Part shown: one piece after another, positions 1,842 through 19,370 of the stretch
Position numbering within the stretch: the stretch's first letter is position 1
Layout: each line of letters opens with the position of its first letter
Virus record (IMG/VR): IMGVR_UViG_3300003690_002253
Length of the DNA: 20,000 nucleotides
Source: an uncultured virus (IMG/VR IMGVR_UViG_3300003690_002253)
Lineage: Duplodnaviria > Heunggongvirae > Uroviricota > Caudoviricetes
Strand: one strand, 5' to 3'
Position numbers and translations under genes: made by a program
Notes under the pieces: model-generated
The model's database searches: none
Told to the model about the DNA's origin: nothing
Seen by the model: only the letters and a program-made list of their open reading frames with translations

Positions 1842-1843
1842 CT

Positions 1844-1878: not shown

Positions 1879-2006
1879 GTTGCACGCGTGCAATTAACTC
1901 TGAACTTATTTAGTAAGCCCCCAGAGAGTGTTTGGGGCTCTATTAGAAACAGCTTAATGCTGTGTTACTACAATCTAACAGATGCGAATACATAAACCAA
2001 TATTTA

Positions 2007-3406: not shown

Positions 3407-4262
3407 CTACAGTAGCTCCTCCCGACAACACAGAGAAACCCGCCATGTCTTCCACATGCAAATCTTCTGGAAAGATATGAACCTTCCGTTGCTGCGATTC
3501 AACAGAAGACATCCCGTGCTTATGAGCATCTTTTACCACCAGCTGGATGGGAACAAAGACAACAGAGCCGTTACAGTTACCGAAATAAGACATTTTACGT
3601 GCGCGGTAATGCATGAAAGGCATGTAGTACTCCGCCGCCATATTTCGAATGCTTAATCCCTTGTCCTCGAATGTTGTCAAAAACTGTGCTTGAGCATGAG
3701 GCCCATTACTCTTACCAACATCATCCAAGTAGAACGTATTTCCATTGTCACGAAACACTTTAACGTTGATGAGCCCGTTAGAGATGGCAGCATGCCCCGG
3801 ATCGTGTTTACCTGCGGAGACAAACCACGAAGCACAGAAAAGAACGTTCTCCCTGTCCTCTTCCGTAGAGTAGTACCGAGAGAGTATCTCCGCATCAAAC
3901 CCGTGTTTACAAACCACGTAGTCGTCTTCTACCAAGAAAGCAAAGTCAATGTCGTCACAGTTCCCTTGAAGCGAGGCGTTCCATGCGCCATAAGAAAAAT
4001 GCTTATTGGGACGACGAAAAAGAGTAATAGGGATGTCAGTCGTCTTCTGATACTCAGCTACCTTCTTTTCCATCTCCTCAAAGTGTGCAAGATGATGATC
4101 GTCCGCATTGCAGGGAATTATTATGCTGTCAATACACGTAGCATTTTTGAAAAGCCACGGGAGATAGTCGTCCACATAGAAGTTGAGAGTGCCCCTCTTC
4201 TGGCCGCACCTCGGTCCGAGAAAAGTAGCGCTGATGTAAGCTATTTTATGTCCATTCCACAT
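3399..4262 (-). CDS. Putative GT-A-fold glycosyltransferase-like protein (paralog 1)
   Basis: DFAFLVEDDY and RPNKHFSYGAW. Colinear similarity to 2603-3406. Starts 1 nt after the aminotransferase stop. Confidence 0.6.
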   Translation of the reverse strand: MWNGHKIAYISATFLGPRCGQKRGTLNFYVDDYLPWLFKNATCIDSIIIPCNADDHHLAHFEEMEKKVAEYQKTTDIPITLFRRPNKHFSYGAWNASLQGNCDDIDFAFLVEDDYVVCKHGFDAEILSRYYSTEEDRENVLFCASWFVSAGKHDPGHAAISNGLINVKVFRDNGNTFYLDDVGKSNGPHAQAQFLTTFEDKGLSIRNMAAEYYMPFMHYRARKMSYFGNCNGSVVFVPIQLVVKDAHKHGMSSVESQQRKVHIFPEDLHVEDMAGFSVLSGGATVDA

Positions 4263-4263
4263 A

Positions 4264-5385
4264 CTACCACCCAGACCTGATCACACTCACAATGTGGTCT
4301 ATATCTTTAGCCTCGACCCACCAACCACACGGAATACAAATCATGTCTGAGCACACCTCGTCTGTGCCGGGGAGGGGAACTCGGTACTTGGCAAGACAGG
4401 TATGCTTGTCGTTACGGTCATGTACTCGACTACACGCAATCCCTTCCCCCTGCAACTTCTTCACAAAGTCATCTCTTCGCTCTACTCGCAATGTGTAAAT
4501 CCAGTACGAGGAACGACATCTCTCAGGCATGTGATCCAGCAATGTAATGCCATCTACGTCACCCAAGGCAGCATCATAAAGCATCCCGTTGGTTCTATGA
4601 GCATGGACGATTTCTTTGATTGATGCGAAGTTCTGGATGCCGATGACGGCATTAATGTCATTCATGTGGAACTTGTATCCCCATTCTGACACGTTCTGCT
4701 CGCACCGCATGTCAGGACTCTTCTCCCGATCCAATCCAAACCACCTGAGCAGCTTGGCCCTTCGATGCGACTCGTAATCAGGAGAGATGAGCACACCACC
4801 GTCACCTGTTGTAAGGTGTTTGATGGCCTGAAAGCTGTGTGCCACGAAATTACCGTGGTTCCCAAGCACCTTTCCGTCCCATTCTGCCCCGAAAGCATGG
4901 GCAGCATCCTCGATAATGGGCGGTCTGTAGCCATAAAGGTGCTCAGATTCGTCCTGAACGGCCCTCAGAGCGTCCAGATCGCACGGAGTGCCTCCCCAGT
5001 GGACAACCATGATCCCAGCGACGTCTGGCCCCAGCTTACGCCGTAGATCCTGCATATCTACATTGCAGGTGGCCGGGTCGGTATCTACCCAGCGAATGTC
5101 GTATCCATTCGCCAGTATGGGGAAGTTGGTAGCTGTGCAGGTGAGAGGGATCGTGAGTATCGTGTTACGATCGCCTGCATGCTTTCGAATAAGGTGCAAT
5201 GCCAGATGAAGAGCAGACGTACCAGCATTCACAGCAGCACACAAAGAAGTACTCGTGTACTCCTTCAGTAGCTCCTCGAACTCGTCAACCTTCGGACCTT
5301 GTGCAATGTATCCGGATTGAAGAACGTCACTGAGAGGGGATGTCACGCCCTCGGCGACAAAGACTTTGAACAACGGGATGTTCAC
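4264..5385 (-). CDS. DegT/DnrJ/EryC1/StrS-family PLP-dependent sugar aminotransferase
   Basis: QGPKVDEFE, VNAGTSALHLAL, IIEDAAHAFG, PLP-lysine motif SFQAIKHLTTGDGG and GYKFHMNDINA. GTG start with AAGGAG SD at 5392-5397. Confidence 0.95.
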   Translation of the reverse strand: MNIPLFKVFVAEGVTSPLSDVLQSGYIAQGPKVDEFEELLKEYTSTSLCAAVNAGTSALHLALHLIRKHAGDRNTILTIPLTCTATNFPILANGYDIRWVDTDPATCNVDMQDLRRKLGPDVAGIMVVHWGGTPCDLDALRAVQDESEHLYGYRPPIIEDAAHAFGAEWDGKVLGNHGNFVAHSFQAIKHLTTGDGGVLISPDYESHRRAKLLRWFGLDREKSPDMRCEQNVSEWGYKFHMNDINAVIGIQNFASIKEIVHAHRTNGMLYDAALGDVDGITLLDHMPERCRSSYWIYTLRVERRDDFVKKLQGEGIACSRVHDRNDKHTCLAKYRVPLPGTDEVCSDMICIPCGWWVEAKDIDHIVSVIRSGW

Positions 5386-5388
5386 TTG

Positions 5389-5754
5389 TTACTCCTTGGA
5401 TTTAAATGGAATCGCCTCCCCGTTTCTTCGTAGTATATCAAAACATTCGGTACAACCCATGTGTGTCCCCTCATGTGATGAAATATAATGATAGGCTCTA
5501 ACCTGCATGTTTGAAGTGAGCCTCCATCGAGAAGCCATCCCAGTCAGCAGTTGATACGTGGACTTGACGTCCTCTCGTGCCTCTGCCTCTCGCAACTTTG
5601 CCGCCTCTTCAGAATCCTCTATCTGCTGCCGCAACTCAGATATTCGCGTTTCAAGAGCACCAACATGCTGAAGCGAAACCATGCTGAATACTACCGAGGA
5701 TGTTAGAAGAAGACAAAACAACAAGTTAAGTCCGATTTCACGTCGCATAACCAT
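5389..5754 (-). CDS. Membrane-anchored coiled-coil protein with a C-terminal His/Cys motif
   Basis: N-terminal hydrophobic helix, coiled coil (LETRISELRQQIEDSEE) and HY...H...H.GC.EC. GGAGG SD upstream. Confidence 0.7.
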   Translation of the reverse strand: MVMRREIGLNLLFCLLLTSSVVFSMVSLQHVGALETRISELRQQIEDSEEAAKLREAEAREDVKSTYQLLTGMASRWRLTSNMQVRAYHYISSHEGTHMGCTECFDILRRNGEAIPFKSKE

Positions 5755-6073
5755 TTCCTCCTAGGGTTATCTTCCCTTCTGTACTTCGTGGCGGTGCTTG
5801 GGGTCTCGCCGGAACCGGGAATGGAATAGGGATGACTGGCTGTATCTGAATGAATATTGGTTTACTCATCATCTCCAGCTGCCCCTTTTCCAGCGCCTCA
5901 AGCCGCTGGTTAACACTCTGACCATCTCCATGGTCAACTTCGTACCTACGAACTTCTCTTCCTGTTAAGCCTCCCAAAAGAAGCAGAGATATAACAGATA
6001 AAAAAGAAGCAATCCTACTCTTTCGCCGAACTTTGACTTTTGATCCAACAAGATCAACAGATTGATGAGACAT
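5738..6073 (-). CDS. Hypothetical single-TM protein with a Pro-rich tail
   Basis: Basic stretch, then TM (IASFLSVISLLLLGGL), short coiled coil and PVIPIPFPVP. GGAGG SD upstream. Confidence 0.7.
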   Translation of the reverse strand: MSHQSVDLVGSKVKVRRKSRIASFLSVISLLLLGGLTGREVRRYEVDHGDGQSVNQRLEALEKGQLEMMSKPIFIQIQPVIPIPFPVPARPQAPPRSTEGKITLGGNGYAT

Positions 6074-6103
6074 TTTCGCCCTCCTTGGCTTAAATCTCGA
6101 AAT

Positions 6104-6331
6104 TTACAGGTTCCTCGCATACACTTGCCAAAACACATGGCCACACAAAAAGCCTGCCATAAAAGATATGACAGGCCACTGTCTTGCCGACTCGTATAAC
6201 ACAACACTAACCGTAGCATCTTCGTTCCCGGTGCAAAGAAGATAGGCGTCCCAACTTCCCATCGCGAGAACAATAAATACGATTAACATCCGTGTTATAA
6301 CTACATGATCCATCTGAGCCTCCTTGCTCAT
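6104..6331 (-). CDS. Small two-TM membrane protein
   Basis: 75 aa with two hydrophobic helices. The internal ATG at 6313 (MDHVV) follows AAGGAGG and may be the real start. Confidence 0.7.
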   Translation of the reverse strand: MSKEAQMDHVVITRMLIVFIVLAMGSWDAYLLCTGNEDATVSVVLYESARQWPVISFMAGFLCGHVFWQVYARNL

Positions 6332-6404
6332 CAGAGTCGCTACATATATTTTCCTTTTTTAGACTGCCTGAGTCTAGGTCATCCCTGTTAATTAACGCTG
6401 GTAA

Positions 6405-7463
6405 TTACAGCAACGCAGCTAGACGTCCGAGTTGTGCTGTCTTACCAAACTGATTAGGACTACCTGTGCGTACCAGCCCGGGCATCTTCTCCGCCCGGTG
6501 CTTAAACCAGTTTTCCCTCGCTGCCCTTGCTTCAGGTGACATATACTCCTCCATCCATTCCTCACCCTCTCGAAGATCTCCGGGCACCCGCTCCTGCTTA
6601 TCGTTCCACTTAAGAGCCTCTTGCGCCTCTTGTGCATTAGTAACGTGCTTCCCCGTAGCTTCGTAATAATTACGCTTAATCGTGGCTAGGAACGCTTCTG
6701 ACTCACGACGGCTTGAGAAATAGTTGGCATAAGACTCTGGATTCTGGCGGTAATAGTCTTGAGACGACTCTCCAAGGTATGTTTTAATATCGTCGTAGTA
6801 GCTCGGGCGATAGTATCGATCCAACTCGGTCCCCGTGGTCGTCGCGCTCGGTGATTGCGATGCATGCGTTAATTCATGTCCGAGCACCTCTGCGCCTTTA
6901 TCCTTGGTGACCAGTCCTCCATACGGATTTGTTGATGGCATGGTAATCCGCCCAGTAATGGGGGAGTAAAACCCGCCGAGACCGATAGCATCCCCTTCAC
7001 CGCCCAGATTTTGATATTCTCGCGCAAAGCCTTCACGTGTTAGCGTGGTAGCAGGAATTTTACGATCAATCGATTTATCAGAAATATCCTGCGTATACGG
7101 TTGCTCAACTCGCGGGTTAGATGCCCGCCACGCTTTGGCGTGTTGTTGCGCTCCCGCTCTATAACCTTTCGGCAATACATCTGCTAACGATACTGACTTA
7201 CGGTCTACAACGGCACGCAAAGATGACCCGGGATAATCTGGCGGCAGTCTCGTGGTATCTACGCCAGCTAAATGCTCCGGGTTTTGGTGTTTAGGGGGAA
7301 GAATTGCAGGTGGAGCTACTGGCTTGATGGTCGTGAACGGGTCCATCGAACCGCCCACCGAATAGGGGTCATCCTCATAGACCCCAAGCGGGCTGTCGCC
7401 CGGCCATGCCTTCTTCTCCATGGCAGCTAGACGTCCGAGTTGTGCTATTTTTTGTAAGTGCAT
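6405..7463 (-). CDS. Leader-bearing protein with a zincin-like HExxH metallopeptidase motif
   Basis: Start reassigned from 7505 to 7463 (MHLQKIAQLGRLAAMEKKA), which matches the sibling leaders and removes the overlap. GGFYSP..GRITM, LGHELTHASQ (HELTH at 6864-6878) and a downstream RESEAF. Confidence 0.75.
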   Translation of the reverse strand: MHLQKIAQLGRLAAMEKKAWPGDSPLGVYEDDPYSVGGSMDPFTTIKPVAPPAILPPKHQNPEHLAGVDTTRLPPDYPGSSLRAVVDRKSVSLADVLPKGYRAGAQQHAKAWRASNPRVEQPYTQDISDKSIDRKIPATTLTREGFAREYQNLGGEGDAIGLGGFYSPITGRITMPSTNPYGGLVTKDKGAEVLGHELTHASQSPSATTTGTELDRYYRPSYYDDIKTYLGESSQDYYRQNPESYANYFSSRRESEAFLATIKRNYYEATGKHVTNAQEAQEALKWNDKQERVPGDLREGEEWMEEYMSPEARAARENWFKHRAEKMPGLVRTGSPNQFGKTAQLGRLAALL

Positions 7464-7477
7464 AGTGAGTAGGCCGT

Positions 7478-7975
7478 TTACCGCTGGTAATTCCGGTAGT
7501 TCCATAGCTTGGGGTAATTAGTCTGCCGGAGTCGCTGCATCGACCGCTTGTTTTTCTGGTACTGAGGGTTAAGTACCGTGCCGTACCCAGAAGGTGCTGG
7601 TACTCTCTGCCTCATGTAATTGAGTCGTCCTTGTACTTCCTCGGGAGTAGCATCAGCCCATGGGTTATTCTGTACTACTCCGTGGGGATCAGTAAGCTCA
7701 CGATAATTATGCATCTCTGCCATCCACTTCTGGTATGCCTCATTGGTCCTCACCGTCGGAACGCCCGGATGCTTCCAGCCCTTAGGTTTATTAGGTATTC
7801 CCGCACTAAAAGGAGCTAGTCCAGAGCCCTTCGGCCCATATAGCGGTTTATTCAATTCCGCAGGAGGCGGCACGCCAGCAAGATTTGGAATCCCTCCACC
7901 TTGTGGAGCCGCGTCCTGAGCCATCTTCCCCATGGCGGATAAACGTCCGAGTTGTGCTATTTTTTTAAGATTCAT
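7478..7975 (-). CDS. Leader-bearing hypothetical Pro-rich protein
   Basis: 165 aa, begins MNLKKIAQLGRLSAMGKMA. Confidence 0.8.
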   Translation of the reverse strand: MNLKKIAQLGRLSAMGKMAQDAAPQGGGIPNLAGVPPPAELNKPLYGPKGSGLAPFSAGIPNKPKGWKHPGVPTVRTNEAYQKWMAEMHNYRELTDPHGVVQNNPWADATPEEVQGRLNYMRQRVPAPSGYGTVLNPQYQKNKRSMQRLRQTNYPKLWNYRNYQR

Positions 7976-8059
7976 TATGTGGTGCCTTTATTCTCGCAGA
8001 CCCAGCCAGATCTGGCGGGTGGATCGGGGCGACTGACTGGCTGGAAAACTCTCTTCTTC

Positions 8060-10246
8060 TCAATCACGCGCTCTATTATCCTCCACGCGCCATTCCATGT
8101 ATTTAGGCAGCTGATTCAAAATTAGGCGCTTCGCCTGCTCCGTAGTAATACTCGGATCTTCCTCAATTTGGTTCTTTATGGCCTTTATCCAAGTCACTAT
8201 TCTCATCGCTTGAAGGCGTTTTTTATCCGCGAGTTCTGCGTATGCACGAATACTATTTAGAGGGTACCCCGGCTCATATAGCAGCGGCGAGCCGGTCATG
8301 ATCGGCGGGAGACTGTACTTGTCTCTCCGGTTGCGATAATAGCTCGGATCTGTGGCCCAGTCCGGCATCTCTGCGAACTCTTTAACTTCATTGAGAACTC
8401 TCTTAAGAGGGTTGGCCCGGCTATTAGCATGTATGTGTGGGTCGTTGTAGTAGGCAGGGCGGTTAGGGCCGTGCGGCAGATTGCTACGTAAGACCTGTCG
8501 TCCCAATGGATCATAAAGCCGCCGACTACGTTCATCTGCATACCCCTCTCCCCTCCGCAGGTGGGCATGCTGCGGGTCGCGCGGGTAGTCGTACTCTCCT
8601 CTTTTACGACTTATATATCCGAGTAATGAATTATCCTCCCTGTAGGACTTCCAAAACTCGTCCGCAAAAGGCCGCTGTCCCGGAGCCATTGTTGTCGTAT
8701 GAGGTGTATGAGAAGGATGAAGCTTAGACAATTGATGAAGCAGATTGAAGTAATTCTGTTGTGCCTTCGTGGCGCGGTCGCGGGGTGCACGATACTCTTT
8801 ATCCACCAGCCGTCCATACTGATGGCCGGTGAGGTTGTAAAAATCGTTTGTGTCGTGAATGTAGTCGCCGAATACCGTCCCGCGCTGCAATCTGCCTCCG
8901 GGACCATACAACTTCTTCATAAGCTCTATCTCACGCTTAGGATCTTTTGAAGGTCCTCCATATGCTGCATTCACCAAAGCCTTCGCCGCAGCGGGATACG
9001 ACTTTTCCTCTATACCGGCTTGACCCATATTTTGACGTGCCGTATCTAATCCCTGCCGAGCTGCCTCGCCAAAACTGAATGGCGACGGTTCGGGGCGGTC
9101 TCGGAAACCCCGTGTTTGCCGTTGACGATTCGCGCTCTCCGTGAGTCCTCTTATTATCTTAGTTCTGAGGTCTGGGCTGACTTGCCTCGTCAACTGAGCT
9201 AAGAGAGGAGAGTTCTCTACACCCTCCGGATCACTTATGGCGGATTGAGCGAGATCCCCGTGAAATTTCCTCTGCTCTTCTCTATATATCGTCGGCATAT
9301 CGTCCGCGATAGATCGCTGAACACCTGTTATCGCTAGTCCGAACGGCGAGAGACTTCTGACGATATCAATAACAGCTGAGCGAGTGGGATGCTCTTGAAG
9401 GCGATGAGCCGCACTTCGCTGCATGCTGGGATATACCTCTCTTCCTGTTTCACGCCACAAGGCCCGAGCAACAGGATCATTCCTACTAAAACTATGAGGC
9501 AACAAACGTAACGCATCACTCCCTTGTATACTTTTTGTAAGTTCTTCTGCCTCATCAGAAGTTAAGTTAGCCAGCTGACCAATTTGTCGAGCATAACTCG
9601 CAGGCTGCTGATACATAACTTGATTAGTTGATTCAAAAGCTGCTGCCGTGGCAGCTCCAATAGGTACAGCCTTATTTATTAATCGCAAAGCATTAGCCGT
9701 GCTCTGACGTGTACGGTCAAGAACGCGCGGAGTCTCTGATTTAGGTTTGGGAGGATTCCAGCCCTTGGGGACGAGAGACAGGGGGCCCTTCGGCTTCAGT
9801 GGTTTGAGAAATCCCTCTGCACTCAAGCCCGGTGGCCTGTCCAGCCCGGGATAACGTGGGTTAATAATAGCACGACCTAGATCAAGCGCTTTTATAGGCT
9901 GCCCCACGGGAACACCAGTGATACCACGAGTAACCTTACCCCCGGCACCCTGAATCGCTTTTAAAACCGCCCGGGAGAAGGCAGCCTTCTCCATGGCTGC
10001 TTGACGTGCATCTTGATAATCCAAGATATTTTGTGAGGACAAACCACCCGGCACTAAACCCTGCGTCCCCATCATTTTCCTCACCCTCGGAGCCACGAAC
10101 TGGTCCATGATGAGACCCATGATGTCGGTTCTCCTCTGCGGGGGCGCAGTCACCACGGGAGCAAATCCCTGACCCAACTGATTCAACAGCATCAAGTCCG
10201 TCTGCCCAACCTGACGTCCGAGTTGTGCTATTTTGTGAAAACGCAT
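8060..10246 (-). CDS. Large leader-bearing hypothetical protein with a split leader
   Basis: 728-aa ORF. Begins MRFHKIAQLGRQ, with RQAAMEKAA at residues 81-89. Confidence 0.85.
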   Translation of the reverse strand: MRFHKIAQLGRQVGQTDLMLLNQLGQGFAPVVTAPPQRRTDIMGLIMDQFVAPRVRKMMGTQGLVPGGLSSQNILDYQDARQAAMEKAAFSRAVLKAIQGAGGKVTRGITGVPVGQPIKALDLGRAIINPRYPGLDRPPGLSAEGFLKPLKPKGPLSLVPKGWNPPKPKSETPRVLDRTRQSTANALRLINKAVPIGAATAAAFESTNQVMYQQPASYARQIGQLANLTSDEAEELTKSIQGSDALRLLPHSFSRNDPVARALWRETGREVYPSMQRSAAHRLQEHPTRSAVIDIVRSLSPFGLAITGVQRSIADDMPTIYREEQRKFHGDLAQSAISDPEGVENSPLLAQLTRQVSPDLRTKIIRGLTESANRQRQTRGFRDRPEPSPFSFGEAARQGLDTARQNMGQAGIEEKSYPAAAKALVNAAYGGPSKDPKREIELMKKLYGPGGRLQRGTVFGDYIHDTNDFYNLTGHQYGRLVDKEYRAPRDRATKAQQNYFNLLHQLSKLHPSHTPHTTTMAPGQRPFADEFWKSYREDNSLLGYISRKRGEYDYPRDPQHAHLRRGEGYADERSRRLYDPLGRQVLRSNLPHGPNRPAYYNDPHIHANSRANPLKRVLNEVKEFAEMPDWATDPSYYRNRRDKYSLPPIMTGSPLLYEPGYPLNSIRAYAELADKKRLQAMRIVTWIKAIKNQIEEDPSITTEQAKRLILNQLPKYMEWRVEDNRARD

Positions 10247-10260
10247 GACATTATTCTTGA

Positions 10261-10594
10261 TAAAAGTGGTGAGCTGGGCAATAGCACCGAGGTTGATGAG
10301 TCACTGGTAGGCATAACCTAGACATCTCCAATAAACTCACCGCCTTTAAGTCTCTTGCCACTACCCGGCAGAAGAGACCGGTTTTGCGTGCAGAGATAAA
10401 GAGCGAAGGGGGTCTGAGGTACCCGAAACTCCTGCTCTGCCGCTCCTACTGCCCGGAGTTCCGTCGACGAGGTTTTTTCCCCAGCAGAACCCAAGGGAAG
10501 ATCCCCGAAAAGCCTCCCCTAATAGCTACTCGTGTGGTCAGGTTCCCGAAAACCCACCTCGCCCAAGCAGCCTGCGTACTCACCCGGTAGTCGC
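10261..10594 (-). ncRNA. Candidate structured RNA of unknown family
   Basis: A ~400-bp gap without a convincing ORF. It contains several nested helices whose G-U pairs work only on the minus strand, plus a UUCG-capped hairpin (see findings). Folded by eye only. Confidence 0.5.
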
Positions 10595-10617
10595 ACTAGC
10601 GCCTCCAAATCCATTTA

Positions 10618-10673
10618 ATCCGGTATTCCTCCATGAATAGTCAGTCCGTAGGTTACGGCACGGGGTAATCTTG
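10618..10673. repeat. 56-bp direct repeat, copy A
   Basis: 54/56 identical to 11164-11219. Covers QDYPVP-stop plus the downstream non-coding DNA. Confidence 0.95.
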
Positions 10674-11153
10674 CAAACGATTGATACTAAATTGACCTTC
10701 CGCAAGATCTTCAAGATACGGCTGATTTAACTTAGCAGCTTGTCCGGGAGCACGCTTACCCGGCGAAGATGGAATAGTATAACGTGATGGAGCGCCTAGC
10801 CCAGAAGCACTTAGATCGGGATATTTGAATGCTGGATGACCCGGCATCACCAGAGGACCAGTAAAGCCGGGATTTTTCTTACGTGCTGCCTGCATCAACT
10901 GGGCATACTGTCTCTGCTGATGAAATTTAGCCATAGGGCTCAAAGATTCCAAATCTCCAGTCCCATGAATTAACTGACGAATACCTTCTGGTGATTGCAG
11001 CTGCTGTTTAAACGACTTGACAAGCTCGGCATCCTTTGGCACCTTTGGTAGCTTTGGCGGCTTAACACCAGAAAGAGCTTTACTAACTGCCCGTTGGCCC
11101 ATCTTTTCCATGGCAGCTAGACGTCCAAGCTGTGCTATGTGTGGGTAGTTCAT
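10653..11153 (-). CDS. Leader-bearing hypothetical Lys/Pro-rich protein
   Basis: Start reassigned from 11180 to 11153 (MNYPHIAQLGRLAAMEKMG). Ends QDYPVP. Confidence 0.8.
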   Translation of the reverse strand: MNYPHIAQLGRLAAMEKMGQRAVSKALSGVKPPKLPKVPKDAELVKSFKQQLQSPEGIRQLIHGTGDLESLSPMAKFHQQRQYAQLMQAARKKNPGFTGPLVMPGHPAFKYPDLSASGLGAPSRYTIPSSPGKRAPGQAAKLNQPYLEDLAEGQFSINRLQDYPVP

Positions 11154-11163
11154 TTTCACTTTT

Positions 11164-11219
11164 ATCCGGTATTCCTCCATGAATAGTCAGTCCGTAGGTT
11201 ACGGTACAGGGTAATCTTG
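11164..11219. repeat. 56-bp direct repeat, copy B
   Basis: 54/56 identical to 10618-10673. Both mismatches are at third codon positions of PVP. Confidence 0.95.
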
Positions 11220-11684
11220 ATGGGGAAGAGCCTTGGATGGCTTTCGCGGACCACGAAGCAAACGGTTAAGCGGCTCTGCTAACCCTCTCACTTTATCGAT
11301 TATCTCGTTCGACTTCTCTCCACCGGGACCATACCCACTAGAAAGAGCAGCCCCACCACCAACTGCACCCACCGTGGCACCAGCACCCAGTATAGCTGAT
11401 CGAATTTTCTTGGGATCATACTGACCACGTTGAGTTAAAGGACGAGTTCCAAGCGGCTTATCCCCTTTCAGTATATTTAGGTATTGGTCATGCGGTATCC
11501 CATACCGCTTCGCAAGGCGTTCCAAGTCGGGGCGGAGTCTACCCCCTACGGACGAGGGTGCGAATGGACTAAAACCGCGAGCGACAGCGGAAGTTGGTGG
11601 CTTAGGTTTAAAAAAGGCTCGCTGAGCTGCCTTCTCCATGGCAGCTAGACGTCCAAGTTGTGCTATTTTGTGGTAATTGTTCAT
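11199..11684 (-). CDS. Leader-bearing hypothetical protein with a Gly/Ala-rich hydrophobic helix
   Basis: Begins MNNYHKIAQLGRLAAMEKAA. Contains AILGAGATVGAVGGGAAL and ends QDYPVP. GGAAGG upstream. Confidence 0.85.
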   Translation of the reverse strand: MNNYHKIAQLGRLAAMEKAAQRAFFKPKPPTSAVARGFSPFAPSSVGGRLRPDLERLAKRYGIPHDQYLNILKGDKPLGTRPLTQRGQYDPKKIRSAILGAGATVGAVGGGAALSSGYGPGGEKSNEIIDKVRGLAEPLNRLLRGPRKPSKALPHQDYPVP

Positions 11685-11722
11685 GGTATTACCTTCCAGC
11701 CTACAGGCTGCAATTTACTTCT

Positions 11723-12382
11723 CTACTTTACACCCCGTGGTTTTCCGACCCACACCAACTTAGCTTGAACTGTACCAGACTGAGGATTCACCTTGAAGGG
11801 ACCCATCTTATAACCACTCTCCTGAGCCAATATCCGATACGCAGACAGCCTAGGTTGACCCTGTTTGTCAATGCTGAGGGAGAGCACTCCCTTAGATCTT
11901 GACCCATCAATTATTTTCAGCATTGAAGCTTTCATATCCTTCGGCTGGTTGACCCAAAACTTGTCTGCGAATTTTTGGTCTCTGATTCTCAGCTGTTTAA
12001 TCCGTTCTGGTGTGAGCTTGGTAGCAGTGGTTGGTTTAGCTGCCGGAGTAGTTGCTACTGGTTTAGTCGGAGGTACAGCTGCTGGCTGCGCCGGTTTAAC
12101 TGGCATAGCTGCTGGTTGCGACAACGGGGCATCTCTGTACCCCTTCACCCCCTTACCATAAAGAGGATGGGTCGAATCAATCAGGTGGGGAATCTCAGGT
12201 GTCTCATTCAGTCGTCGGGGAAGATATGCCTCCCTCCCCGGCATCTCAGGTGCGGTAGGAACCTTCGGCGGCTTTGGTACCGCCGTTGGTATCTTTGGCG
12301 TTTTTTTGAACAGTGACTTCGGAACAGCCATCTTTTCCATGGCAGCCAAGCGACCCAGATTAGCCATATGGTCAAAATTCAT
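11723..12382 (-). CDS. Leader-bearing hypothetical basic Pro/Ala/Thr-rich protein
   Basis: Begins MNFDHMANLGRLAAMEKMA. QPAA/KP low-complexity linker and a probably globular basic C-terminus. Confidence 0.85.
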   Translation of the reverse strand: MNFDHMANLGRLAAMEKMAVPKSLFKKTPKIPTAVPKPPKVPTAPEMPGREAYLPRRLNETPEIPHLIDSTHPLYGKGVKGYRDAPLSQPAAMPVKPAQPAAVPPTKPVATTPAAKPTTATKLTPERIKQLRIRDQKFADKFWVNQPKDMKASMLKIIDGSRSKGVLSLSIDKQGQPRLSAYRILAQESGYKMGPFKVNPQSGTVQAKLVWVGKPRGVK

Positions 12383-12396
12383 TACTTGCTCATAAG

Positions 12397-15300
12397 TTAA
12401 GGTACTGGAATTGGTATACCTGTATCTGTTGTTGGCTTAGGAACAGCTGTATCTTCCTCTTCAGGTGGTGCGGTAGGTACTGCACCGGGCTCTTCGGCAG
12501 TTCCGCCGGGGACTTCTTCAGATGGTATGGTAGATGCCCCTATCTCAGGCTCTGCGGCAGTGGCAGCAGCCTCGTTACGCTGCTTGAAATACGCATCAAC
12601 TTGTGCTTTTGAAAACCCGGCGTGTCGGCCCATTTCATAATAAGTTATATTATATTCTGAGTTCGTATCGCTTCCACTTCTTGCGTCGGGGAGGACATAT
12701 TGGTCGAGCTGTGCCATAAGGGATGCGTTAGCTCCGGCATCAGCATCGGCATCAGCTCCGGCACCAGCTCCGGCACCAGCTCCGGGAGCATTCGCGTTAG
12801 CCTTCTCTGCACCGCCGAACAGACTACCGAACACCATCGGAAGGATAAACATAGCAAGTCCGGCCATTCCTGCCGTGGTGTTGCCACTTATTAATCCTCC
12901 AACACCTAAAGCTCCTCCAGCAATCATAAGTAATTTCAGAATAGGACTCATGTTCGCTACAGCCTCTGGTCCCATGACCATGCCCAGCAACGAGTCCATA
13001 CCAATCGACTTAGTGAACTTGTTAATATTTTCACCCATGCCGCCCAACAGATTGAAGCCGCCTGCTCCCATCTTGTCCAGAAGCATGGCTTTAACCTTGT
13101 CATGGCCTTCAGTCTCAATTATATGTTCAATAATCTTTCCTTCTTTCGCGGCAATGAACAACTTACCTAGCTTCGTCTCAGGATCTCCCAGCTCCGCGAC
13201 CATTTCGAGGTCAATACCCAGCTTTTCCGCAATGGCTTCGATGGCTCCGGGACTGTTCGTTAGCTTGTCGTATGCCTCTTGCCCAGCGAGGAGTGTGACG
13301 CCTCCTCCTACCGTTCCCCCTATCACCTTCCGAGTTAGGCTACCCGGTCTGGGCTCCGGGACAGCCGGTGTGACGGGAGAAGTGCCCAATGCTTGCAGAG
13401 CTGCGGTGTTCCTCGCCGCCCGACTGTCTGCCTCTTCAGCGTCTAAGCGAAGCGTCTCAGCTCTCTGTAGCCGAATCAACTCTGCCGCGTCAGCGTCTTC
13501 GCCGAAATCTAGCTTAAGTTGTCTCTCTGGTGTTGGCTTACCAGTGACTTCGTCGATGGCCTGCTGTGACGCCGGATTCGGCTGACGAGGACCATGCGTT
13601 TGCTCCAGCGGTTTCCGGCGGCCAATATTGGGAAATAGCTCAAGTTGCTCAGGTTGACCAGTCAAAACAGAGCCAGCGCCTAGATCAATCTCTTGATACC
13701 CCGCCTCAACCCTTCTTCTATTGTAAGCAGCCGGACTCTCCCCCCGACGCTGGTTTATCACTTGTCGTTGTGTGCTGGGTATAGGTGGTCCTTCTGGCGT
13801 CGTTGGTGTTACTTTTGGTTTTACTTTTTCTGGTGATGATAGTGATGCTGGCCCTTCAGGCACGTCTAGTTTCTTTGGTGGTGTGAACAGTCCAGTTGCG
13901 AGTGTTTTTGTAACCTCCGGGTCTGGTCTGACGGGGATGTTAATTACGTTGGACCCGCGCGATCCCAGCCCTCCCTTTATCGGCTTCTTGGGTGTGACCA
14001 CTGACTTCGGAACAGCCACCTTTTCCAGTAGCTGGGGGATATTTACCGCTCGCAGCTCTGTAATAAACTCATTTCCTACCAATCCCGCAGCCTTTTCCAG
14101 TGCGTTAGGTAGCAATTCAACAGCGAGACCACTGTTAATCAGACCGCCAAAAAAGGCACACGGGAAAGGAGCATAGCCCGCTTCCTTGAGCATCTTAATT
14201 GCATCTTGCGGAATATGTACGCTTGCAAAATCAGCAGCGCGAGCCCACCAACCGTCTGAACCACCGGGCTTACCTGTCACAAATGGACGCCGAGGCTGAT
14301 GTGCTGACAGGCCAGCTGACACTCTATCTGACGGACTCGGAACTGCGTAAGTACTTGCTTTTCCAGTCGATACCTTCTTCGGTACGGGCATGGGAGGACC
14401 AAGCTCCTTCGGCGCTGTCCCTTCATAGAGCTTTAGTCCGGGCCTGTTGTAACTCCAACGTCGATCCTTGGATAAGGGATATTGCTTGTTTTTACCAAGA
14501 AGATAGTCTTTAACAGCCGCATCCGTACGTCTCTCTTTCTCTCGCTCCCAGTCACGTGTGGGAGGATTATTAAACTCCTCGCGTACCCATTCCTCATGCT
14601 TCATGTCAGGATGCACAGCGTTACAGTCATGACGTGGTCGCTGATCCGCTGGCTGCATGGCGTATTTCGAAAGAGCAGCCTTCTCCAAGGAAGCCTTCCA
14701 CTCTTCATGAGTCTGATTGGGATGTACTCCATGGCAATCATGTCGCGGAGTCTGATCAGCAGGCTGTTCGGACTTACCGTACTTGTCCATTACTGAACTA
14801 GCTATCTGTGTCCCAACACCAAACGGCTCTGCCTTATTTCCATCTTCGTCTACAAAGTCAGCATGCTCCCGTTCGGTACCATGCTCATCAATGTACTCCC
14901 ACCGCCAGTTTTGACGATAAATTTTCTTACCGTCAGGTGTAGTAGCGAATAGTTCCCTGTCCTTTGGGTGCTCTTTCTTCTTCTCTTTCTTCGCGTATTT
15001 ACTCATCGCCTCTTTTGCATCGTCTACGTAGCTGTCCTCGTCTTCCTCCTCTTCTGCATGCTCGTCATCTTTGTCCCTGTTGAGATATTTGTATAACCCA
15101 TAACCACCTAATCCCAGCGCACCCGCGCCAACAGCCAGCTGGGGCCAGTGGTCCCCTAACCAGTCACCCTTATCATCCTTAGCTGTAAGACCTGTCGCTT
15201 CGGCGTCCTGTTTCAGGGTTTCCTGCCTCGCTTGATCCGTGTGAAGTGGTGTCGCCGGTACACCATCCGACTTCGGGTCTTGTTCCTCACGCCACTTAGT

Positions 15301-16992
15301 GTCCGCTGCCCGCCTCTTCCCAGCCGGGGACTTCGGGTCCAACGAGTCAACCGCATAGCCCTTGTCGGCGCGGCGCTGGTCGTCCTCGGAATCCCGTCGA
15401 TGTCCGGTCCGTTCGAAGAATTCTTCGTCCGTGGCGTGGTCGCCAGTGATATCGGTGTCATCCCAGCTCAGCAGATTACGACCCCGGCCCGGGTTCCCGA
15501 AGGTATTGACTACTGGTGGGGTGGTATTGACTACTAGTGGGGTACCTCCCGGACCCCGCAACATGTAGGCCCCGCCACCGAGTACACCAAGCCCACCGGC
15601 AACAGCAGCAGTAGGTTTGAGGTATTTCGTTAAAGCCCTCTGCGCTACCTTCTCATATCCCTGCTTCTCCGCTCCTGTCTTCACATACTTATCAATGCTG
15701 CCCTTCTCAGTAGTATCCGGCAAAAAGCTGCCAGCACCGGGAGCAGTTACAGAACCACCCTGAATAGAACCGCCCGTACCAGACTCCGGCAAAAAGCTAC
15801 CCGCATTAGGAGCAGTTACAGAGCCACCCTGAATATCTTTCGAGTTTTGCGGTTCAGGTATCAGCCCACGCAATCCGAAGCGGCGTTCAGCTTGGTTGTA
15901 ACCCGGTCCAAAATTTCTTGGGTGCGGAGAGGGCTGTTGTCCCTGAAGCTGTCCTTGGATGAAAGTGCCTGTCTCATTACGAGGTTCACCGGGAATTCCC
16001 GGGGGCAACTGATCAGTTTTAAGCTTCAACTCGTAGCGTTGTCGCTGCAACTCCTCAGCTTTTGCGCGACCAAGGGAACTCCCATAACCAGCGGGATTAA
16101 ACATGGATGGATTCCACGGTTCCATCACCTGTCCACTGTCGGGTTCCTTCATGAGGGGCAGCTCCTGACCCGTCTTCACGTACTTATCAATGCCAGCCGT
16201 TTCCCATGTACCCGGAGCGGGGGGCTTTATCTCTGGTGGCACTGGCAGGCCACCTCGGAGCGATTTCAGGAAAGTTCGATCCACTTGTCGTTCACTTTGG
16301 GCTTTAGTTCGAGCCGCTTTTCGGTCGCCTCTAGCTAAAATTCGATCGACCCGACGATAAGTTCTCGGTGTAGCAGGCTTGTCACCACCACGAGGTTTTT
16401 GCTCACCTTGGGGTTTAATTCGGTCCACTTTTCGTTCGCCTTTAGCTACCATTCGGTCGGTCTGCCGCTGCTGCCGATCTCCTTGGCGTGTACTCTGACG
16501 GTAAGCTCTCTCGTCTGTCTTCGCATCTCCCGTCTTCATGAACTTGCTCAGACTCTCCCATGCAGCAGGACCAGTCGCGTGATCCTCGTCACGTGTGGTG
16601 AAGCTGACACCATTGTCCTCACCAGTAGAGGAACGCTGATCCTTGCTGTTGTCCTGAGCTGCATATTTATTAACGGCAGGAAATGCCATCTGGTTGCTCT
16701 GGTTTAGCTGATTAATGCTCGCCTGAACATCTTCAAGTCCTGCTCCACTGATATTGGCAGAGGACGCGTACGGATTCTGTGGGCCTTCGTTACCGGCACC
16801 AGCACCAAGTGAAGCGGCTCCTGCATATGGGAAGCTCTTACTCATGGGCCCTAAATGAGTAGGGGCATTCCCTACACCCGGCAATCCGGGGACGGGAGAC
16901 TGCTGGACAGCATTCTGGCCGCCAAGCATGCCCATGCCGTCGACATTTAAGCCTGCGTTGTCCTGAGCCGCTTTTGTGCGTTTTTTAGCCAT
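12397..16992 (-). CDS. Very large modular low-complexity protein, putative polyprotein or internal virion protein
   Basis: 1531-aa ORF with AGGA upstream. Many K-Y-[AVG], K-T-G and EK-x-[AG] sites, internal duplications and several Gly-zipper hydrophobic segments. Confidence 0.9.
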   Translation of the reverse strand: MAKKRTKAAQDNAGLNVDGMGMLGGQNAVQQSPVPGLPGVGNAPTHLGPMSKSFPYAGAASLGAGAGNEGPQNPYASSANISGAGLEDVQASINQLNQSNQMAFPAVNKYAAQDNSKDQRSSTGEDNGVSFTTRDEDHATGPAAWESLSKFMKTGDAKTDERAYRQSTRQGDRQQRQTDRMVAKGERKVDRIKPQGEQKPRGGDKPATPRTYRRVDRILARGDRKAARTKAQSERQVDRTFLKSLRGGLPVPPEIKPPAPGTWETAGIDKYVKTGQELPLMKEPDSGQVMEPWNPSMFNPAGYGSSLGRAKAEELQRQRYELKLKTDQLPPGIPGEPRNETGTFIQGQLQGQQPSPHPRNFGPGYNQAERRFGLRGLIPEPQNSKDIQGGSVTAPNAGSFLPESGTGGSIQGGSVTAPGAGSFLPDTTEKGSIDKYVKTGAEKQGYEKVAQRALTKYLKPTAAVAGGLGVLGGGAYMLRGPGGTPLVVNTTPPVVNTFGNPGRGRNLLSWDDTDITGDHATDEEFFERTGHRRDSEDDQRRADKGYAVDSLDPKSPAGKRRAADTKWREEQDPKSDGVPATPLHTDQARQETLKQDAEATGLTAKDDKGDWLGDHWPQLAVGAGALGLGGYGLYKYLNRDKDDEHAEEEEDEDSYVDDAKEAMSKYAKKEKKKEHPKDRELFATTPDGKKIYRQNWRWEYIDEHGTEREHADFVDEDGNKAEPFGVGTQIASSVMDKYGKSEQPADQTPRHDCHGVHPNQTHEEWKASLEKAALSKYAMQPADQRPRHDCNAVHPDMKHEEWVREEFNNPPTRDWEREKERRTDAAVKDYLLGKNKQYPLSKDRRWSYNRPGLKLYEGTAPKELGPPMPVPKKVSTGKASTYAVPSPSDRVSAGLSAHQPRRPFVTGKPGGSDGWWARAADFASVHIPQDAIKMLKEAGYAPFPCAFFGGLINSGLAVELLPNALEKAAGLVGNEFITELRAVNIPQLLEKVAVPKSVVTPKKPIKGGLGSRGSNVINIPVRPDPEVTKTLATGLFTPPKKLDVPEGPASLSSPEKVKPKVTPTTPEGPPIPSTQRQVINQRRGESPAAYNRRRVEAGYQEIDLGAGSVLTGQPEQLELFPNIGRRKPLEQTHGPRQPNPASQQAIDEVTGKPTPERQLKLDFGEDADAAELIRLQRAETLRLDAEEADSRAARNTAALQALGTSPVTPAVPEPRPGSLTRKVIGGTVGGGVTLLAGQEAYDKLTNSPGAIEAIAEKLGIDLEMVAELGDPETKLGKLFIAAKEGKIIEHIIETEGHDKVKAMLLDKMGAGGFNLLGGMGENINKFTKSIGMDSLLGMVMGPEAVANMSPILKLLMIAGGALGVGGLISGNTTAGMAGLAMFILPMVFGSLFGGAEKANANAPGAGAGAGAGADADADAGANASLMAQLDQYVLPDARSGSDTNSEYNITYYEMGRHAGFSKAQVDAYFKQRNEAAATAAEPEIGASTIPSEEVPGGTAEEPGAVPTAPPEEEDTAVPKPTTDTGIPIPVP
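12730..12785. repeat. 12-bp tandem repeat, coding (GAGAGAGADADADAGA)
   Basis: Units agctccggcatc / agcatcggcatc / agctccggcacc / agctccggcacc / agctccgg. Confidence 0.85.
14587..14766 (-). repeat. Duplicated 23-aa His/Cys module (period 111 bp)
   Basis: QPADQTPRHDCHGVHPNQTHEEW (14698-14766) and QPADQRPRHDCNAVHPDMKHEEW (14587-14655). Confidence 0.9.
15716..15835 (-). repeat. Coding tandem duplication (period 69 bp)
   Basis: IQGGSVTAPNAGSFLPE and IQGGSVTAPGAGSFLPD at 15785-15835 and 15716-15766. Confidence 0.9.
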
Positions 16993-18223: not shown

Positions 18224-18260
18224 TTTTCTACCCTTGGTTACTAAAGAGATGTAAAAACTG

Positions 18261-18920: not shown

Positions 18921-18962
18921 TCTAGAATTCCTTGTTATTGTTGTTTCTGCTCACACTACTAA

Positions 18963-19370
18963 TTAGGGCATGCCATATCTAAGACTATCAATATCCATAT
19001 CCCCGGTTTCTATCGGAAGCGTTTGTTGCGGTCTCTCTTCCTCTTTCTGTCCAGTTAGTTGCTTGTAGTAATTAAGGAGAGGATCGTATGTACGCCCACC
19101 AAGAGCACCAAGACCACCACCAGCAAGAGCACCAATTAAGGCACCTCTACCGCCTCCCAGCAGTCCACCACCCAAAGCACCAATCCCAAGGCCACCTACT
19201 CCACCAATAATGGAGCTTTTGGCTTCAGGAGAAAGACCTTCCCAGTAACCCTTGACCGTGTCGCCAATAGAGCCGAACGAATCACCAATAGAACCCCAGT
19301 CAACAGCAAGCTTGACTTCTTCTCCACGGGCAGCCGCACGGGCAATATAGGCAATCAATTCCGCATTCAT
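18963..19370 (-). CDS. Small glycine-zipper membrane protein with a divergent leader
   Basis: MNAELIAYIARAAARGEEVKLA, then IIGGVGGLGIGALGGGLLGGGRGALIGALAGGGLGALGG (GxxxG repeats). Confidence 0.8.
   Translation of the reverse strand: MNAELIAYIARAAARGEEVKLAVDWGSIGDSFGSIGDTVKGYWEGLSPEAKSSIIGGVGGLGIGALGGGLLGGGRGALIGALAGGGLGALGGRTYDPLLNYYKQLTGQKEEERPQQTLPIETGDMDIDSLRYGMP

What the first reader, a model, noticed from the sequence alone, without database searches (positions are those of the whole stretch)
10261..10594. Unrecognised multi-helix structured RNA in the largest intergenic gap of the leader-gene array
Minus-strand pairings seen (plus-strand coordinates): an imperfect closing helix 10584-10594 with 10357-10368; GCUGCUUGGG (10562-10571) with UCCGGGCAGU (10448-10457), 10 bp including four G-U; CGAGGU (10556-10561) with ACCUCG (10468-10473); a long interrupted hairpin 10483-10530 capped by UUCG (10506-10509); and GCAGAG/CUCUGC (10435-10440 with 10390-10395). 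A competing hairpin (GUCUCUU/AAGAGAC, 10350-10378) overlaps the closing helix, which hints at a switch. A second domain is closed by 10261-10273 with 10336-10348. UUUCGGG occurs three times. The G-U asymmetry points to the same strand as the genes. I do not recognise it as tRNA, tmRNA, RNase P or a riboswitch, so a novel ncRNA or regulatory leader is inferred.
Basis: partly seen in the sequence, partly recalled or inferred. Interest (0 to 1): 0.7.

Follow-up and report, generated by a model that had tools for sequence, protein, structure and literature searches.

The report
New structured RNA in marine phage
The gap between two virion-protein genes of an uncultured marine phage encodes an elaborately folded RNA of about 370 bases that is conserved better than the genes around it and matches no known RNA family, so its job is still open.

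Summary
I found two full-length homologues: a TARA contig (L002, 90% identical, flanking genes 61-73%) and an IMG/VR phage contig (L008/G001, 65% identical). On the three-sequence alignment, a nested nine-helix fold has 95.8% of cells paired (slid controls 42-49%). 29 of 112 pairs changed on both sides (slid controls 2-7; 0 of 500 shuffles). There are stops in all six frames and indels that are not multiples of three. No Rfam 15 family matches in any of the three copies, and ARAGORN finds nothing. Contigs from two RNA libraries carry it, and parts of it occur in runs of 17 marine studies. The true closing helix is 10578-10584 with 10268-10274, followed by UUUU. One reader helix is refuted and two are outcompeted. 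The flanking genes differ in all three genomes, so I favour an autonomous stable RNA. Its function is inferred, not shown. A conserved GGAGGA-AUG at the 5' end keeps a translation-linked role open.

The parts
10262..10636 (-). Whole RNA unit: 5' module, 5' tail, closed nine-helix body, U tract (about 375 nt)
   Evidence: This is the extent of similarity to L002 and L008. nhmmer with the two-sequence profile finds one full copy in the window.
10623..10636 (-). 5' module UCAUGGAGGAAUAC with a Shine-Dalgarno-like GGAGGA (10627-10632)
   Evidence: GGAGGA(N)UAC lies upstream of the RNA in 3 of 3 genomes. In the 33.8-kb G001 contig it occurs only there.
10606..10614 (-). Invariant AUGGAUUUG, 12-13 nt after GGAGGA. 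The ORF behind this AUG is not conserved (31, 23 and 5 codons)
   Evidence: Invariant columns in A4 and A7. I read the ORFs directly from the sequences. UGGAU can pair with the invariant GUCUA in the H9 internal loop (no covariation).
10586..10590 (-). CUACC, 5' strand of the candidate pseudoknot
   Evidence: Invariant in 3 of 3 and complementary to the invariant H8 loop.
10361..10365 (-). GGUAG, loop of H8, 3' strand of the candidate pseudoknot
   Evidence: Invariant loop on a stem that changes by 3 compensatory pairs.
10578..10584 (-). H1 5' strand GGUGAGU (closing helix)
   Evidence: 7 of 7 pairs with 10268-10274 in 3 of 3 sequences, none varying. Also predicted from each single sequence.
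10268..10274 (-). H1 3' strand GCUCACC
   Evidence: As above. Coordinates checked.
10524..10572 (-). H2, hairpin with internal loop and an apical UUCGGGAACC loop. It contains the longest invariant run
   Evidence: Helices 2 and 3: 9 pairs 100% paired (1 double change, 2 single) and 8 pairs 91% paired.
10494..10520 (-). H3, hairpin capped by UUCG
   Evidence: Helix 4: 12 pairs, 6 with changes on both sides. The stem sequence is replaced in L008 while the loop is kept.
10455..10493 (-). H4, hairpin with an A-rich apical loop
   Evidence: Helices 5 and 6: 8 pairs with 4 double changes, and 5 pairs 100% paired.
10445..10454 (-). H5 5' strand (closes the 3' domain)
   Evidence: Helix 7: 9 pairs with 10276-10285, 3 double and 2 single changes.
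10276..10285 (-). H5 3' strand
   Evidence: As above. Coordinates checked.
10386..10443 (-).
   Evidence: Helices 8-10: 4 pairs with double changes.
10379..10382 (-). H7 5' strand ACCG, pairs with 10286-10289
   Evidence: Helix 11: 4 pairs, 2 double changes, 100% paired.
10286..10289 (-). H7 3' strand CGGU
   Evidence: As above. Coordinates checked.
10350..10378 (-).
   Evidence: Helices 12 and 13: 10 pairs, 100% paired, 3 double changes.
10290..10345 (-). H9, long hairpin with an invariant internal loop GAUGUC and a variable tip
   Evidence: Helices 14 and 15: 6 double changes. L002 lengthens the tip by 13 nt.
10262..10265 (-). U tract 2 nt after H1, the probable 3' end
   Evidence: GCUCACC is followed by ACUUUU, AUUUUUUU and UUUUUA in the three copies. 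The simple terminator scan does not call it.
11160..11219 (-). Solo copy of the 5' module plus the preceding 'QDYPVP*' codons, without the RNA body, in front of the 175-aa gene
   Evidence: 60-nt direct repeat, 95% identical to 10614-10673. nhmmer E = 3.5e-9.
10653..11180 (-). Upstream gene (175-aa ORF). The leader MNYPHIAQLGRLAAMEK starts at 11153
8060..10246 (-). Downstream gene (728 aa) with a split leader. Its AUG lies 21 nt after H1 and has no Shine-Dalgarno of its own

Best explanation
The minus strand of 10262-10636 specifies a non-coding RNA of about 350-375 nt that belongs to a family not yet described.

Fold. A 5' tail is followed by a body closed by a 7-bp helix (H1). The body holds three hairpins (H2-H4) and a second closed domain (H5 enclosing H6 and H7, H7 enclosing H8 and H9). 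A U tract sits right after H1. The 5' tail probably folds back onto the 3' domain through the invariant CUACC-GGUAG pairing.

Shown: the RNA is real, non-coding, read from the gene strand, under strong selection for this fold, and present in RNA libraries.

Inferred (about 0.55): it is an autonomous module that yields a stable RNA, either ending at the U tract or cut out of the late virion-gene transcript. It then acts in trans through its invariant loops and junctions, as a scaffold or ribonucleoprotein, and is not the leader of one particular gene.

More speculative (about 0.15 within that): the exposed GGAGGA-AUG tail lets it engage ribosomes or another factor that binds GGA.
For: (1) Conservation above its surroundings. 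Window against L002: RNA 89.6% nt identity (311 of 347), flanking genes 61-73% nt and 48-59% aa. Window against L008: RNA 65% (225 of 346), while the neighbouring 1531/1309-aa proteins are 22-29% identical.

(2) Covariation. 112 pairs, 95.8% of cells paired, 29 pairs changed on both sides, 0 of 500 shuffles as high, slid controls 2-7. 28 such pairs by RNAalifold.

(3) The pattern of a functional RNA. Paired columns vary more than unpaired ones (39% against 28%, window against L008). 17-22 of the 112 pairs are G-U.

(4) Non-coding. 2-11 stops in each of the six frames of each copy. Indel runs are 6, 1, 1, 13 and 1, 1, 2, 1, 1, 1, 1, 2, 1.

(5) Neighbours differ in 3 of 3 genomes:
- Window: 175-aa leader gene, RNA, 728-aa leader gene.
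- L002: 420-aa-like gene, RNA, 164-aa leader gene.
- G001: 1309-aa gene, RNA, 68-aa ORF without a leader.

(6) A U tract follows H1 in 3 of 3.

(7) Contigs of two RNA libraries from two studies carry it (X10: 10340-10547; X16: 10345-10443 and 10431-10579). In all, 20 rows from 17 studies hold parts of it, 6 of them RNA rows.

(8) No known family matches.
Against: - No promoter was found (1 promoter-like site in 6000-13000, on the plus strand), and the terminator scan does not call the U tract. An independent transcript is therefore not shown.
- Contigs cannot show strand, ends or level, and RNA libraries can carry DNA.
- A conserved GGAGGA, then 12-13 nt, then AUG at the 5' end looks like an mRNA start. 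In 3 of 3 genomes the next gene's AUG follows 21-55 nt after H1 without a strong Shine-Dalgarno of its own. This fits a cis role.
- Only three full-length sequences exist, two of them 90% alike.
- The pseudoknot is invariant, so covariation does not support it.
- Folding z-scores are only moderate (-2.2 and -2.6).
- No binding partner is known.
Confidence: 0.55

Rival explanations
1. A cis-acting device in the mRNA. Ribosomes load at the conserved GGAGGA-AUG. The compact body, whose ends are joined by H1, then controls or hands over translation (or read-through of the U tract) to the next gene's AUG. It would be an oversized leader, comparable to a short upstream ORF with a structure-bridged start site.
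For: - GGAGGA, then 12-13 nt, then AUGGAUUUG is kept in 3 of 3 genomes, while the ORF behind the AUG is not (31, 23 and 5 codons; read).
- The next gene starts 21-55 nt after H1 in 3 of 3 and lacks a strong Shine-Dalgarno.
- The solo copy of the module sits 13 nt before a GUG and 19 nt before the AUG of the 175-aa gene, so it can serve as a start region.
- Small hairpins that bridge a distant Shine-Dalgarno to its AUG are known in phage T4 genes 25 and 38 (recalled, not checked).
Against: - The downstream genes are unrelated in the three genomes (728-aa leader gene, 164-aa leader gene, 68-aa ORF without a leader).
- A U tract directly follows the structure.
- Nine covarying helices with invariant loops are far more than any known leader needs.
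- With H1 formed, the Shine-Dalgarno would still be about 60 nt of chain away from the second AUG.
- The solo module is a recent 95%-identical duplicate, so it is not independent evidence.
Confidence: 0.2
2. A conformational switch. The long-range helices 10562-10571/10448-10457 and 10556-10561/10468-10473 would alternate with H2, H4 and H5, responding to a ligand or forming during transcription.
For: These helices pair in 28 of 30 and 17 of 18 cells across the three sequences. Slid controls give 30-49%.
Against: - Their covariation is no better than shuffles (332 of 500): one double change and two broken cells.
- The competing helices H4 and H5 carry 4 and 3 double changes.
- No Rfam riboswitch matches.
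- The downstream genes are not of one kind.
Confidence: 0.08
3. A selfish mobile RNA element, such as an intron-like ribozyme or a non-autonomous insertion, that lands between a start region and a start codon.
For: - Its place in the gene array differs in 3 of 3 genomes.
- The window's 175-aa gene looks like an 'empty site' of the L002 arrangement.
- An AUG stands at both borders in 3 of 3.
- The window has a P1-like hairpin, CCGGAUU/GAUUUGG, with a U-G pair.
Against: - No intron family of Rfam matches.
- The P1-like hairpin and the upstream 'MEEYRIK' frame are absent in L008, which has no AUG before GGAGGA.
- The flanks are complete genes, so there is nothing to splice.
- No joints appear in 4 of 4 laid runs.
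- No transposase, endonuclease or reverse transcriptase lies beside it.
- There is one copy per contig.
Confidence: 0.08
4. No functional RNA: a decayed gene, a DNA-level site, or chance pairings.
For: The whole-gap z-score is weak (-1.53). The region lies in a recombining gene array.
Against: - It is conserved better than the neighbouring genes.
- 29 pairs have compensatory changes.
- G-U pairs make the fold specific to one strand.
- There are stops in all six frames.
Confidence: 0.02

Closest known systems
GOLLD and ROOL RNAs (large ornate RNAs of phages and prophages)
   Same: Large, many-helix, phage-encoded RNAs of unknown function, defined by covariation, with conserved loops. GOLLD and ROOL form RNA-only cages through kissing loops, and ribosomes were pulled down with GOLLD (PMC12286853, abstract and passages). 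This RNA also has an invariant complementary loop/strand pair and a ribosome-binding-like tail.
   Different: - No Rfam match to either.
- About 370 nt, against about 580 nt for ROOL (recalled) and more than 800 nt for GOLLD.
- Not beside tRNA genes (0 tRNAs in the 20-kb window).
- It lies inside a virion-protein gene array.
- Multimer formation is untested.
phi29 packaging RNA (pRNA)
   Same: A phage RNA tied to head function. Its copies join through complementary loops (recalled). Here the RNA lies among genes for probable head-packaged proteins and has the complementary invariant pair CUACC/GGUAG.
   Different: pRNA is about 120-174 nt and restricted to phi29-like phages (recalled). No Rfam family matched here at E <= 10. 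Nothing shows whether the pairing here is between molecules or within one.
tmRNA
   Same: Similar size. A 7-bp helix joins the 5' and 3' parts. It has pseudoknot potential and an mRNA-like start signal.
   Different: ARAGORN and Rfam find none. No T-arm lies next to the 3' strand of H1 and no CCA is encoded. The start signal lies upstream of the closing helix, not inside the body.
Group I introns of phages
   Same: Size of 250-400 nt, a compact fold, a variable position among related genomes, and common in large phages (recalled).
   Different: No model match. It does not interrupt a gene. The P1-like hairpin is not conserved and no spliced joint was seen.
Structure-bridged or shunted translation starts (T4 genes 25 and 38; cauliflower mosaic virus 35S leader)
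   Same: A start signal or short ORF, then a closed structure, then the real start codon (recalled). This is the layout seen here in 3 of 3 genomes.
   Different: The T4 hairpins are tens of bases long, and shunting over hundreds of bases is known only in eukaryotic systems (recalled). Nothing here shows ribosome transfer.

Membership tests
Group I intron (Rfam Intron_gpI) | Match to the family covariance model | tested here: not met
   No hit at gathering score and none at E <= 10 in the window, L002 or L008.
Group I intron (Rfam Intron_gpI) | Interrupts a gene, so that the exons join to one product | tested here: not met
   It is flanked by a stop codon and by the next gene's start. The upstream 'MEEYRIK' frame is missing in L008. 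No joints in 4 of 4 laid runs.
Group I intron (Rfam Intron_gpI) | P1 with a U-G pair at the 5' splice site, terminal G, P3-P7 pseudoknot core | tested here: inconclusive
   A P1-like hairpin exists in the window, is weakened in L002 and absent in L008. I could assign no P3-P7 core to the covarying helices.
tmRNA | Detected by ARAGORN or by the Rfam tmRNA models; tRNA-like end with a T-arm | tested here: not met
   ARAGORN finds 0 genes. Rfam finds none. The bases before H1's 3' strand belong to H5, not to a T-arm.
RNase P RNA | Match to the Rfam RNase P models (P4 core) | tested here: not met
   No hit at E <= 10.
GOLLD / ROOL / OLE / HEARO / raiA (large bacterial and phage RNAs) | Match to the family covariance model | tested here: not met
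   No hit.
GOLLD / ROOL | Often encoded near tRNA islands of phages | tested here: not met
   0 tRNA genes in the 20-kb window. The feature comes from PMC12286853 passages.
GOLLD / ROOL | Homo-oligomer held by intermolecular loop contacts | not testable with these tools
   The candidate contact CUACC/GGUAG is invariant. Whether it forms within or between molecules needs experiments.
Riboswitch or cis-regulatory leader | Constant association with one downstream gene family | tested here: not met
   There are three different downstream genes in the three genomes.
Riboswitch or cis-regulatory leader | Expression platform (a terminator, or a hairpin that hides the start site) coupled to the fold | tested here: inconclusive
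   A U tract follows H1 in 3 of 3, but no canonical terminator is called. AUG(1) may pair with the H9 loop (invariant).
Protein-coding gene or pseudogene | An open frame kept among homologues, with indels in threes | tested here: not met
   Stops in all six frames of all three copies. Indel runs of 1 and 2 nt.
CsrB/RsmZ-type protein sponge | Many GGA motifs in loops, enriched above composition | tested here: not met
   By my count on A4, only about five GGA sites are kept in all three copies over 375 nt. That is about what the G-rich composition gives. The consensus motif is recalled.

The most novel reading that the evidence does not exclude
The RNA is a working part of the phage's head and ejection-protein module. 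Copies would join through the invariant CUACC-GGUAG pairing between molecules, as in phi29 pRNA rings or ROOL/GOLLD cages. The assembly would either organise the propeptide-bearing proteins encoded around it or be delivered with them, and its free GGAGGA-AUG tail would capture host ribosomes early in infection. That would be an RNA-based structural or takeover device in a large marine phage with no described counterpart.
Probability: 0.07. Interest if true: 0.9.

Novelty: categorically new. Interest (0 to 1): 0.72.

Why it matters
Large RNAs with elaborate conserved folds are rare. Each earlier class (RNase P RNA, tmRNA, group I and II introns, OLE, GOLLD, ROOL, HEARO) turned out to be a ribozyme, a machine part or an unexpected assembly.

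This one has nine covarying helices, invariant loops and a likely pseudoknot. It is the best-conserved feature of a fast-evolving virion-gene array, and it occurs in marine and vent samples from 17 studies, including RNA libraries. It gives RNA structural biology and phage biology a new, well-defined object.

The caveat on the label 'categorically new': it is new as a family, because every membership test failed. Its function is unknown and may yet prove to be of a known kind.

Tried and rejected
- Own genome: none is held for this window.
- Exact scans for more homologues. Two blocks of the RNA gave 0 hits in IMG/VR and 0 in GTDB genomes. Two other blocks found only the G001 contig in IMG/VR.
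- Chance hits in genomes. In GTDB genomes those two blocks gave 1 and 12 loci. One lies inside a coding region (L010). The model R1 does not recognise any of them (best E = 0.65), and 4 of the 12 scanned with Rfam gave 0 hits.
- GenBank phages, blastn distant mode: no match for the window copy or the L008 copy.
- Vibrio phage D181, the nearest cultured relative by portal protein at 26.6% identity: no R1 match in its 187 kb.
- Protein-guided scans with the 728-aa, 175-aa and 1531-aa proteins gave only L001 (unrelated, no leader motif), L002 and G001.
- Intron with exons 'MEEYRI|...': rejected, because L008 has no AUG before GGAGGA.
- N-terminal extension of P0002 as a translated RNA copy: no convincing similarity (best score 35).
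- Pairing of the RNA with the conserved leader mRNA: only 5-6 contiguous pairs, not kept in L002 or L008 (by eye).
- CsrA-type sponge: GGA is not enriched.
- Sigma-70 promoter or canonical terminator at the borders: none.
- Coverage. No laid RNA-library contig reached the flanking genes, and no joints were seen. Contigs cannot rank expression or show absence, so I draw nothing from this.
- Earlier findings of this scan: nothing by sequence or by place.
- Paper searches for the leader motif and an RNA 19-mer: 0 papers. Two topical searches gave nothing relevant; I saw the listings only.

Full report
CONTEXT. All long ORFs of the window lie on the minus strand. Most have no Pfam or PHROG match. 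The exception is a sugar-modification cluster at 1263-5385: a DegT-type aminotransferase, a GNAT acetyltransferase and a sulfotransferase. Six genes begin with the same leader, M-x3-4-(K/H)-I-A-Q-L-G-R-L-A-A-M-E-K. The gap 10247-10652 (406 nt) lies between two of them. No whole genome is held. The window's own protein cluster is recorded on a 77-kb contig.

THE OBSERVATION. Rfam 15 gives nothing at gathering score over the window. At E <= 10 in 10100-10800 there are only three chance-level hits. ARAGORN finds no tRNA or tmRNA. The whole gap gives z = -1.53.

HOMOLOGUES.
- A scan of metagenome contigs with relatives of the 728-aa protein returned one TARA contig, L002. Its stretch 289-705 is 90% identical to the gap, while the genes around it are 61-73% identical in DNA and 48-59% in protein.
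- A scan of IMG/VR with the leader DNA gave L004. A search of that 33.8-kb record (G001) found a third, diverged copy (L008), 65% identical to the window in the core.
- Nothing else turned up in IMG/VR, in one genome per GTDB species, or in GenBank phages.
- Sampled 31-mers of the stretch occur in 20 listed runs from 17 studies, all marine, seawater or hydrothermal vent. Six of these rows are RNA libraries.

STRUCTURE. RNAalifold on the three sequences predicts 112 nested pairs. Counted on the alignment, 95.8% of cells pair, against 42-49% when the partners are slid. 29 pairs changed on both sides, against 2-7 when slid, and no shuffle out of 500 reaches this. In L008 the stems H3, H4, H5, H6, H8 and H9 have largely different sequences that still pair, and the L008 sequence folded alone gives the same architecture (z = -2.61). 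Paired columns vary more than unpaired ones (39% against 28%), and 17-22 of the 112 pairs are G-U, so only the minus strand can form the fold. All six frames carry stops in all copies, and the indels are mostly 1-2 nt.

The fold, with coordinates checked:
- 5' tail.
- H1, 10578-10584 with 10268-10274.
- Hairpins H2 (10524-10572), H3 (10494-10520) and H4 (10455-10493).
- H5, 10445-10454 with 10276-10285. It encloses H6 (10386-10443) and H7 (10379-10382 with 10286-10289).
- H7 encloses H8 (10350-10378) and H9 (10290-10345).
- UUUU at 10262-10265.

Three are confirmed: GCAGAG/CUCUGC, the core of the UUCG hairpin, and GUCUCUU/AAGAGAC.

The 'closing helix' reduces to the invariant 5-bp CUACC (10586-10590) with GGUAG (10361-10365), which is the loop of H8. 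The stem under that loop changes by three compensatory pairs while the loop never varies. I therefore read this as a pseudoknot and not as a competitor. Because it is invariant, covariation cannot prove it.

The two long-range helices pair in 28 of 30 and 17 of 18 cells but show no covariation beyond shuffles (332 of 500). They clash with H4 and H5, which covary.

The helix 10261-10273 with 10336-10348 fails in L008, with 5 of 12 pairs.

A second possible tertiary pairing joins UGGAU in the invariant AUGGAUUUG to GUCUA in the H9 internal loop. It is also invariant.

THE 5' END. UCAnGGAGGA(A)UAC, then 12-13 nt, then AUGGAUUUG precedes the body in 3 of 3 genomes. The frame behind this AUG runs 31, 23 and 5 codons and is not conserved.

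In the window the first 40 nt of the unit, together with the last codons of the preceding gene (QDYPVP*), recur at 11160-11219. There they are 95% identical over 60 nt and sit in front of the 175-aa gene without the RNA body. This is a recent duplication and shows that the array recombines.

In 3 of 3 genomes the next gene's AUG follows H1 by 21-55 nt and has no strong Shine-Dalgarno. This layout keeps a translation-linked reading alive.

NEIGHBOURS. The RNA always lies on the gene strand inside the same module, which holds the 420-aa, 1531/1309-aa and leader genes, but between different genes each time. G001 also encodes a tubulin/FtsZ-like protein (GGGTGSG motif read; the name is recalled), a portal-like protein, a Holliday junction resolvase and an HNH endonuclease. 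CheckV rates its 33.8 kb as 15% complete, which suggests a genome of roughly 200 kb. The nearest cultured portal relatives are Vibrio phages of 187 kb and Salmonella phage Arash, at about 26% identity. A model of the 5' domain (R1) finds no copy in Vibrio phage D181.

EXPRESSION. I laid four runs.
- RNA library X10: one 209-nt contig, 10340-10547, with 1 other letter and 1 inserted letter.
- RNA library X16: two contigs, 10345-10443 (16 other letters) and 10431-10579 (1 other letter, 1 inserted letter).
- DNA runs X12 and X6: further pieces. X6 also covers 10790-10900.
- No joints were seen.

Contigs show presence in RNA libraries but not strand, ends or level.

WHAT IT IS. A conserved, non-coding, strand-specific, multi-helix RNA of a family absent from Rfam 15.

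HOW IT WORKS. This part is inferred.
- I favour an autonomous stable RNA that acts in trans through its invariant loops and junctions. The reasons are that its neighbours differ in all three genomes, a U tract follows the closing helix, and the conserved architecture far exceeds what a leader needs (0.55).
- A cis device linked to the GGAGGA-AUG start and the next gene's AUG is the main rival (0.2).
- A switch (0.08), a mobile or ribozyme element (0.08) and 'no function' (0.02) follow.

COMPARISON WITH KNOWN RNAS. The closest in kind are GOLLD and ROOL: phage-borne ornate RNAs of unknown function that form RNA-only cages (PMC12286853, abstract and passages). Membership fails for these and for group I introns, tmRNA and RNase P RNA.

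I searched full texts for the leader motif and for an RNA 19-mer and found no paper. Subscription journals and supplements are not covered, so prior description under another name cannot be excluded.

Noticed in passing
window minus strand, gene starts at 7463, 7975, 10246, 11153, 11684, 12382; L002 715 and 1379; G001 8680: Six genes of the window share the N-terminal leader M-x3-4-(K/H)-I-A-Q-L-G-R-L-A-A-M-E-K. Two genes in L002 and one in G001 have it too. The A-M-E fits the A-X-E motif after which the prohead protease of giant phage SPN3US removes N-terminal propeptides of head and ejection proteins (PMC10052503, passages). The leaders may therefore be cleavable head-targeting propeptides.
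   Followed up: partly
window 10003-10246 (-), residues 1-81 of the 728-aa protein: The leader of the 728-aa protein is split: MRFHKIAQLGRQ, then an insert of about 68 residues, then AAMEK. Homologues P0002 and P0003 have the uninterrupted leader. The insert is 65% identical to the N-terminal part of an otherwise unrelated protein, P0005. The gene looks like a recombinant mosaic right next to the RNA.
   Followed up: partly
window 6405-6455 (-): The 366-aa protein ends with a leader-like ...FGKTAQLGRLAALL*, a leader motif at a C-terminus. It appears as a copy of repeat family D3.
   Followed up: no
window 10614-10673 and 11160-11219: A 60-nt direct repeat, 95% identical, spans the last codons (QDYPVP*) of the 175-aa and 161-aa genes and the 40 nt after them. 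This is evidence of recent duplication or recombination in the array.
   Followed up: yes
window 1263-5385 (-): A sugar-modification cluster sits next to the virion genes: sulfotransferase-like, GNAT acetyltransferase, two unassigned 267-aa and 287-aa paralogue-like proteins, and a DegT/DnrJ/EryC1 aminotransferase (E = 2e-73).
   Followed up: no
window 12397-16992 (-); G001 2177-6106 (-): A giant 1531-aa protein (1309 aa in G001, 29% identical) has a conserved block KYAAQDNSK..STGEDNGVS..TRDEDHATGP, glycine-rich hydrophobic stretches and a GAGAGAGADADADAG repeat. It matches no family. In G001 the RNA lies directly after this gene.
   Followed up: partly
G001 contig 18011-19432 (-) (L012 1011-2432): A 473-aa protein carries a GGGTGSG motif, the tubulin/FtsZ signature (recalled). 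Its only PHROG match is weak and of unknown function. Tubulin-like proteins are typical of some very large phages (recalled).
   Followed up: no
window 10515 and 10523: Contigs of both RNA libraries (X10, X16) share T>C at 10523 and an extra C after 10515. The DNA contigs of X6 and X12 that cover these places match the window. This is most simply a widespread strain variant. Editing cannot be judged without DNA and RNA from one sample.
   Followed up: no
L002 1213-1362 (+): L002 has a 49-aa ORF with a hydrophobic stretch between its 164-aa and 728-like genes. It has no counterpart at that place in the window.
   Followed up: no
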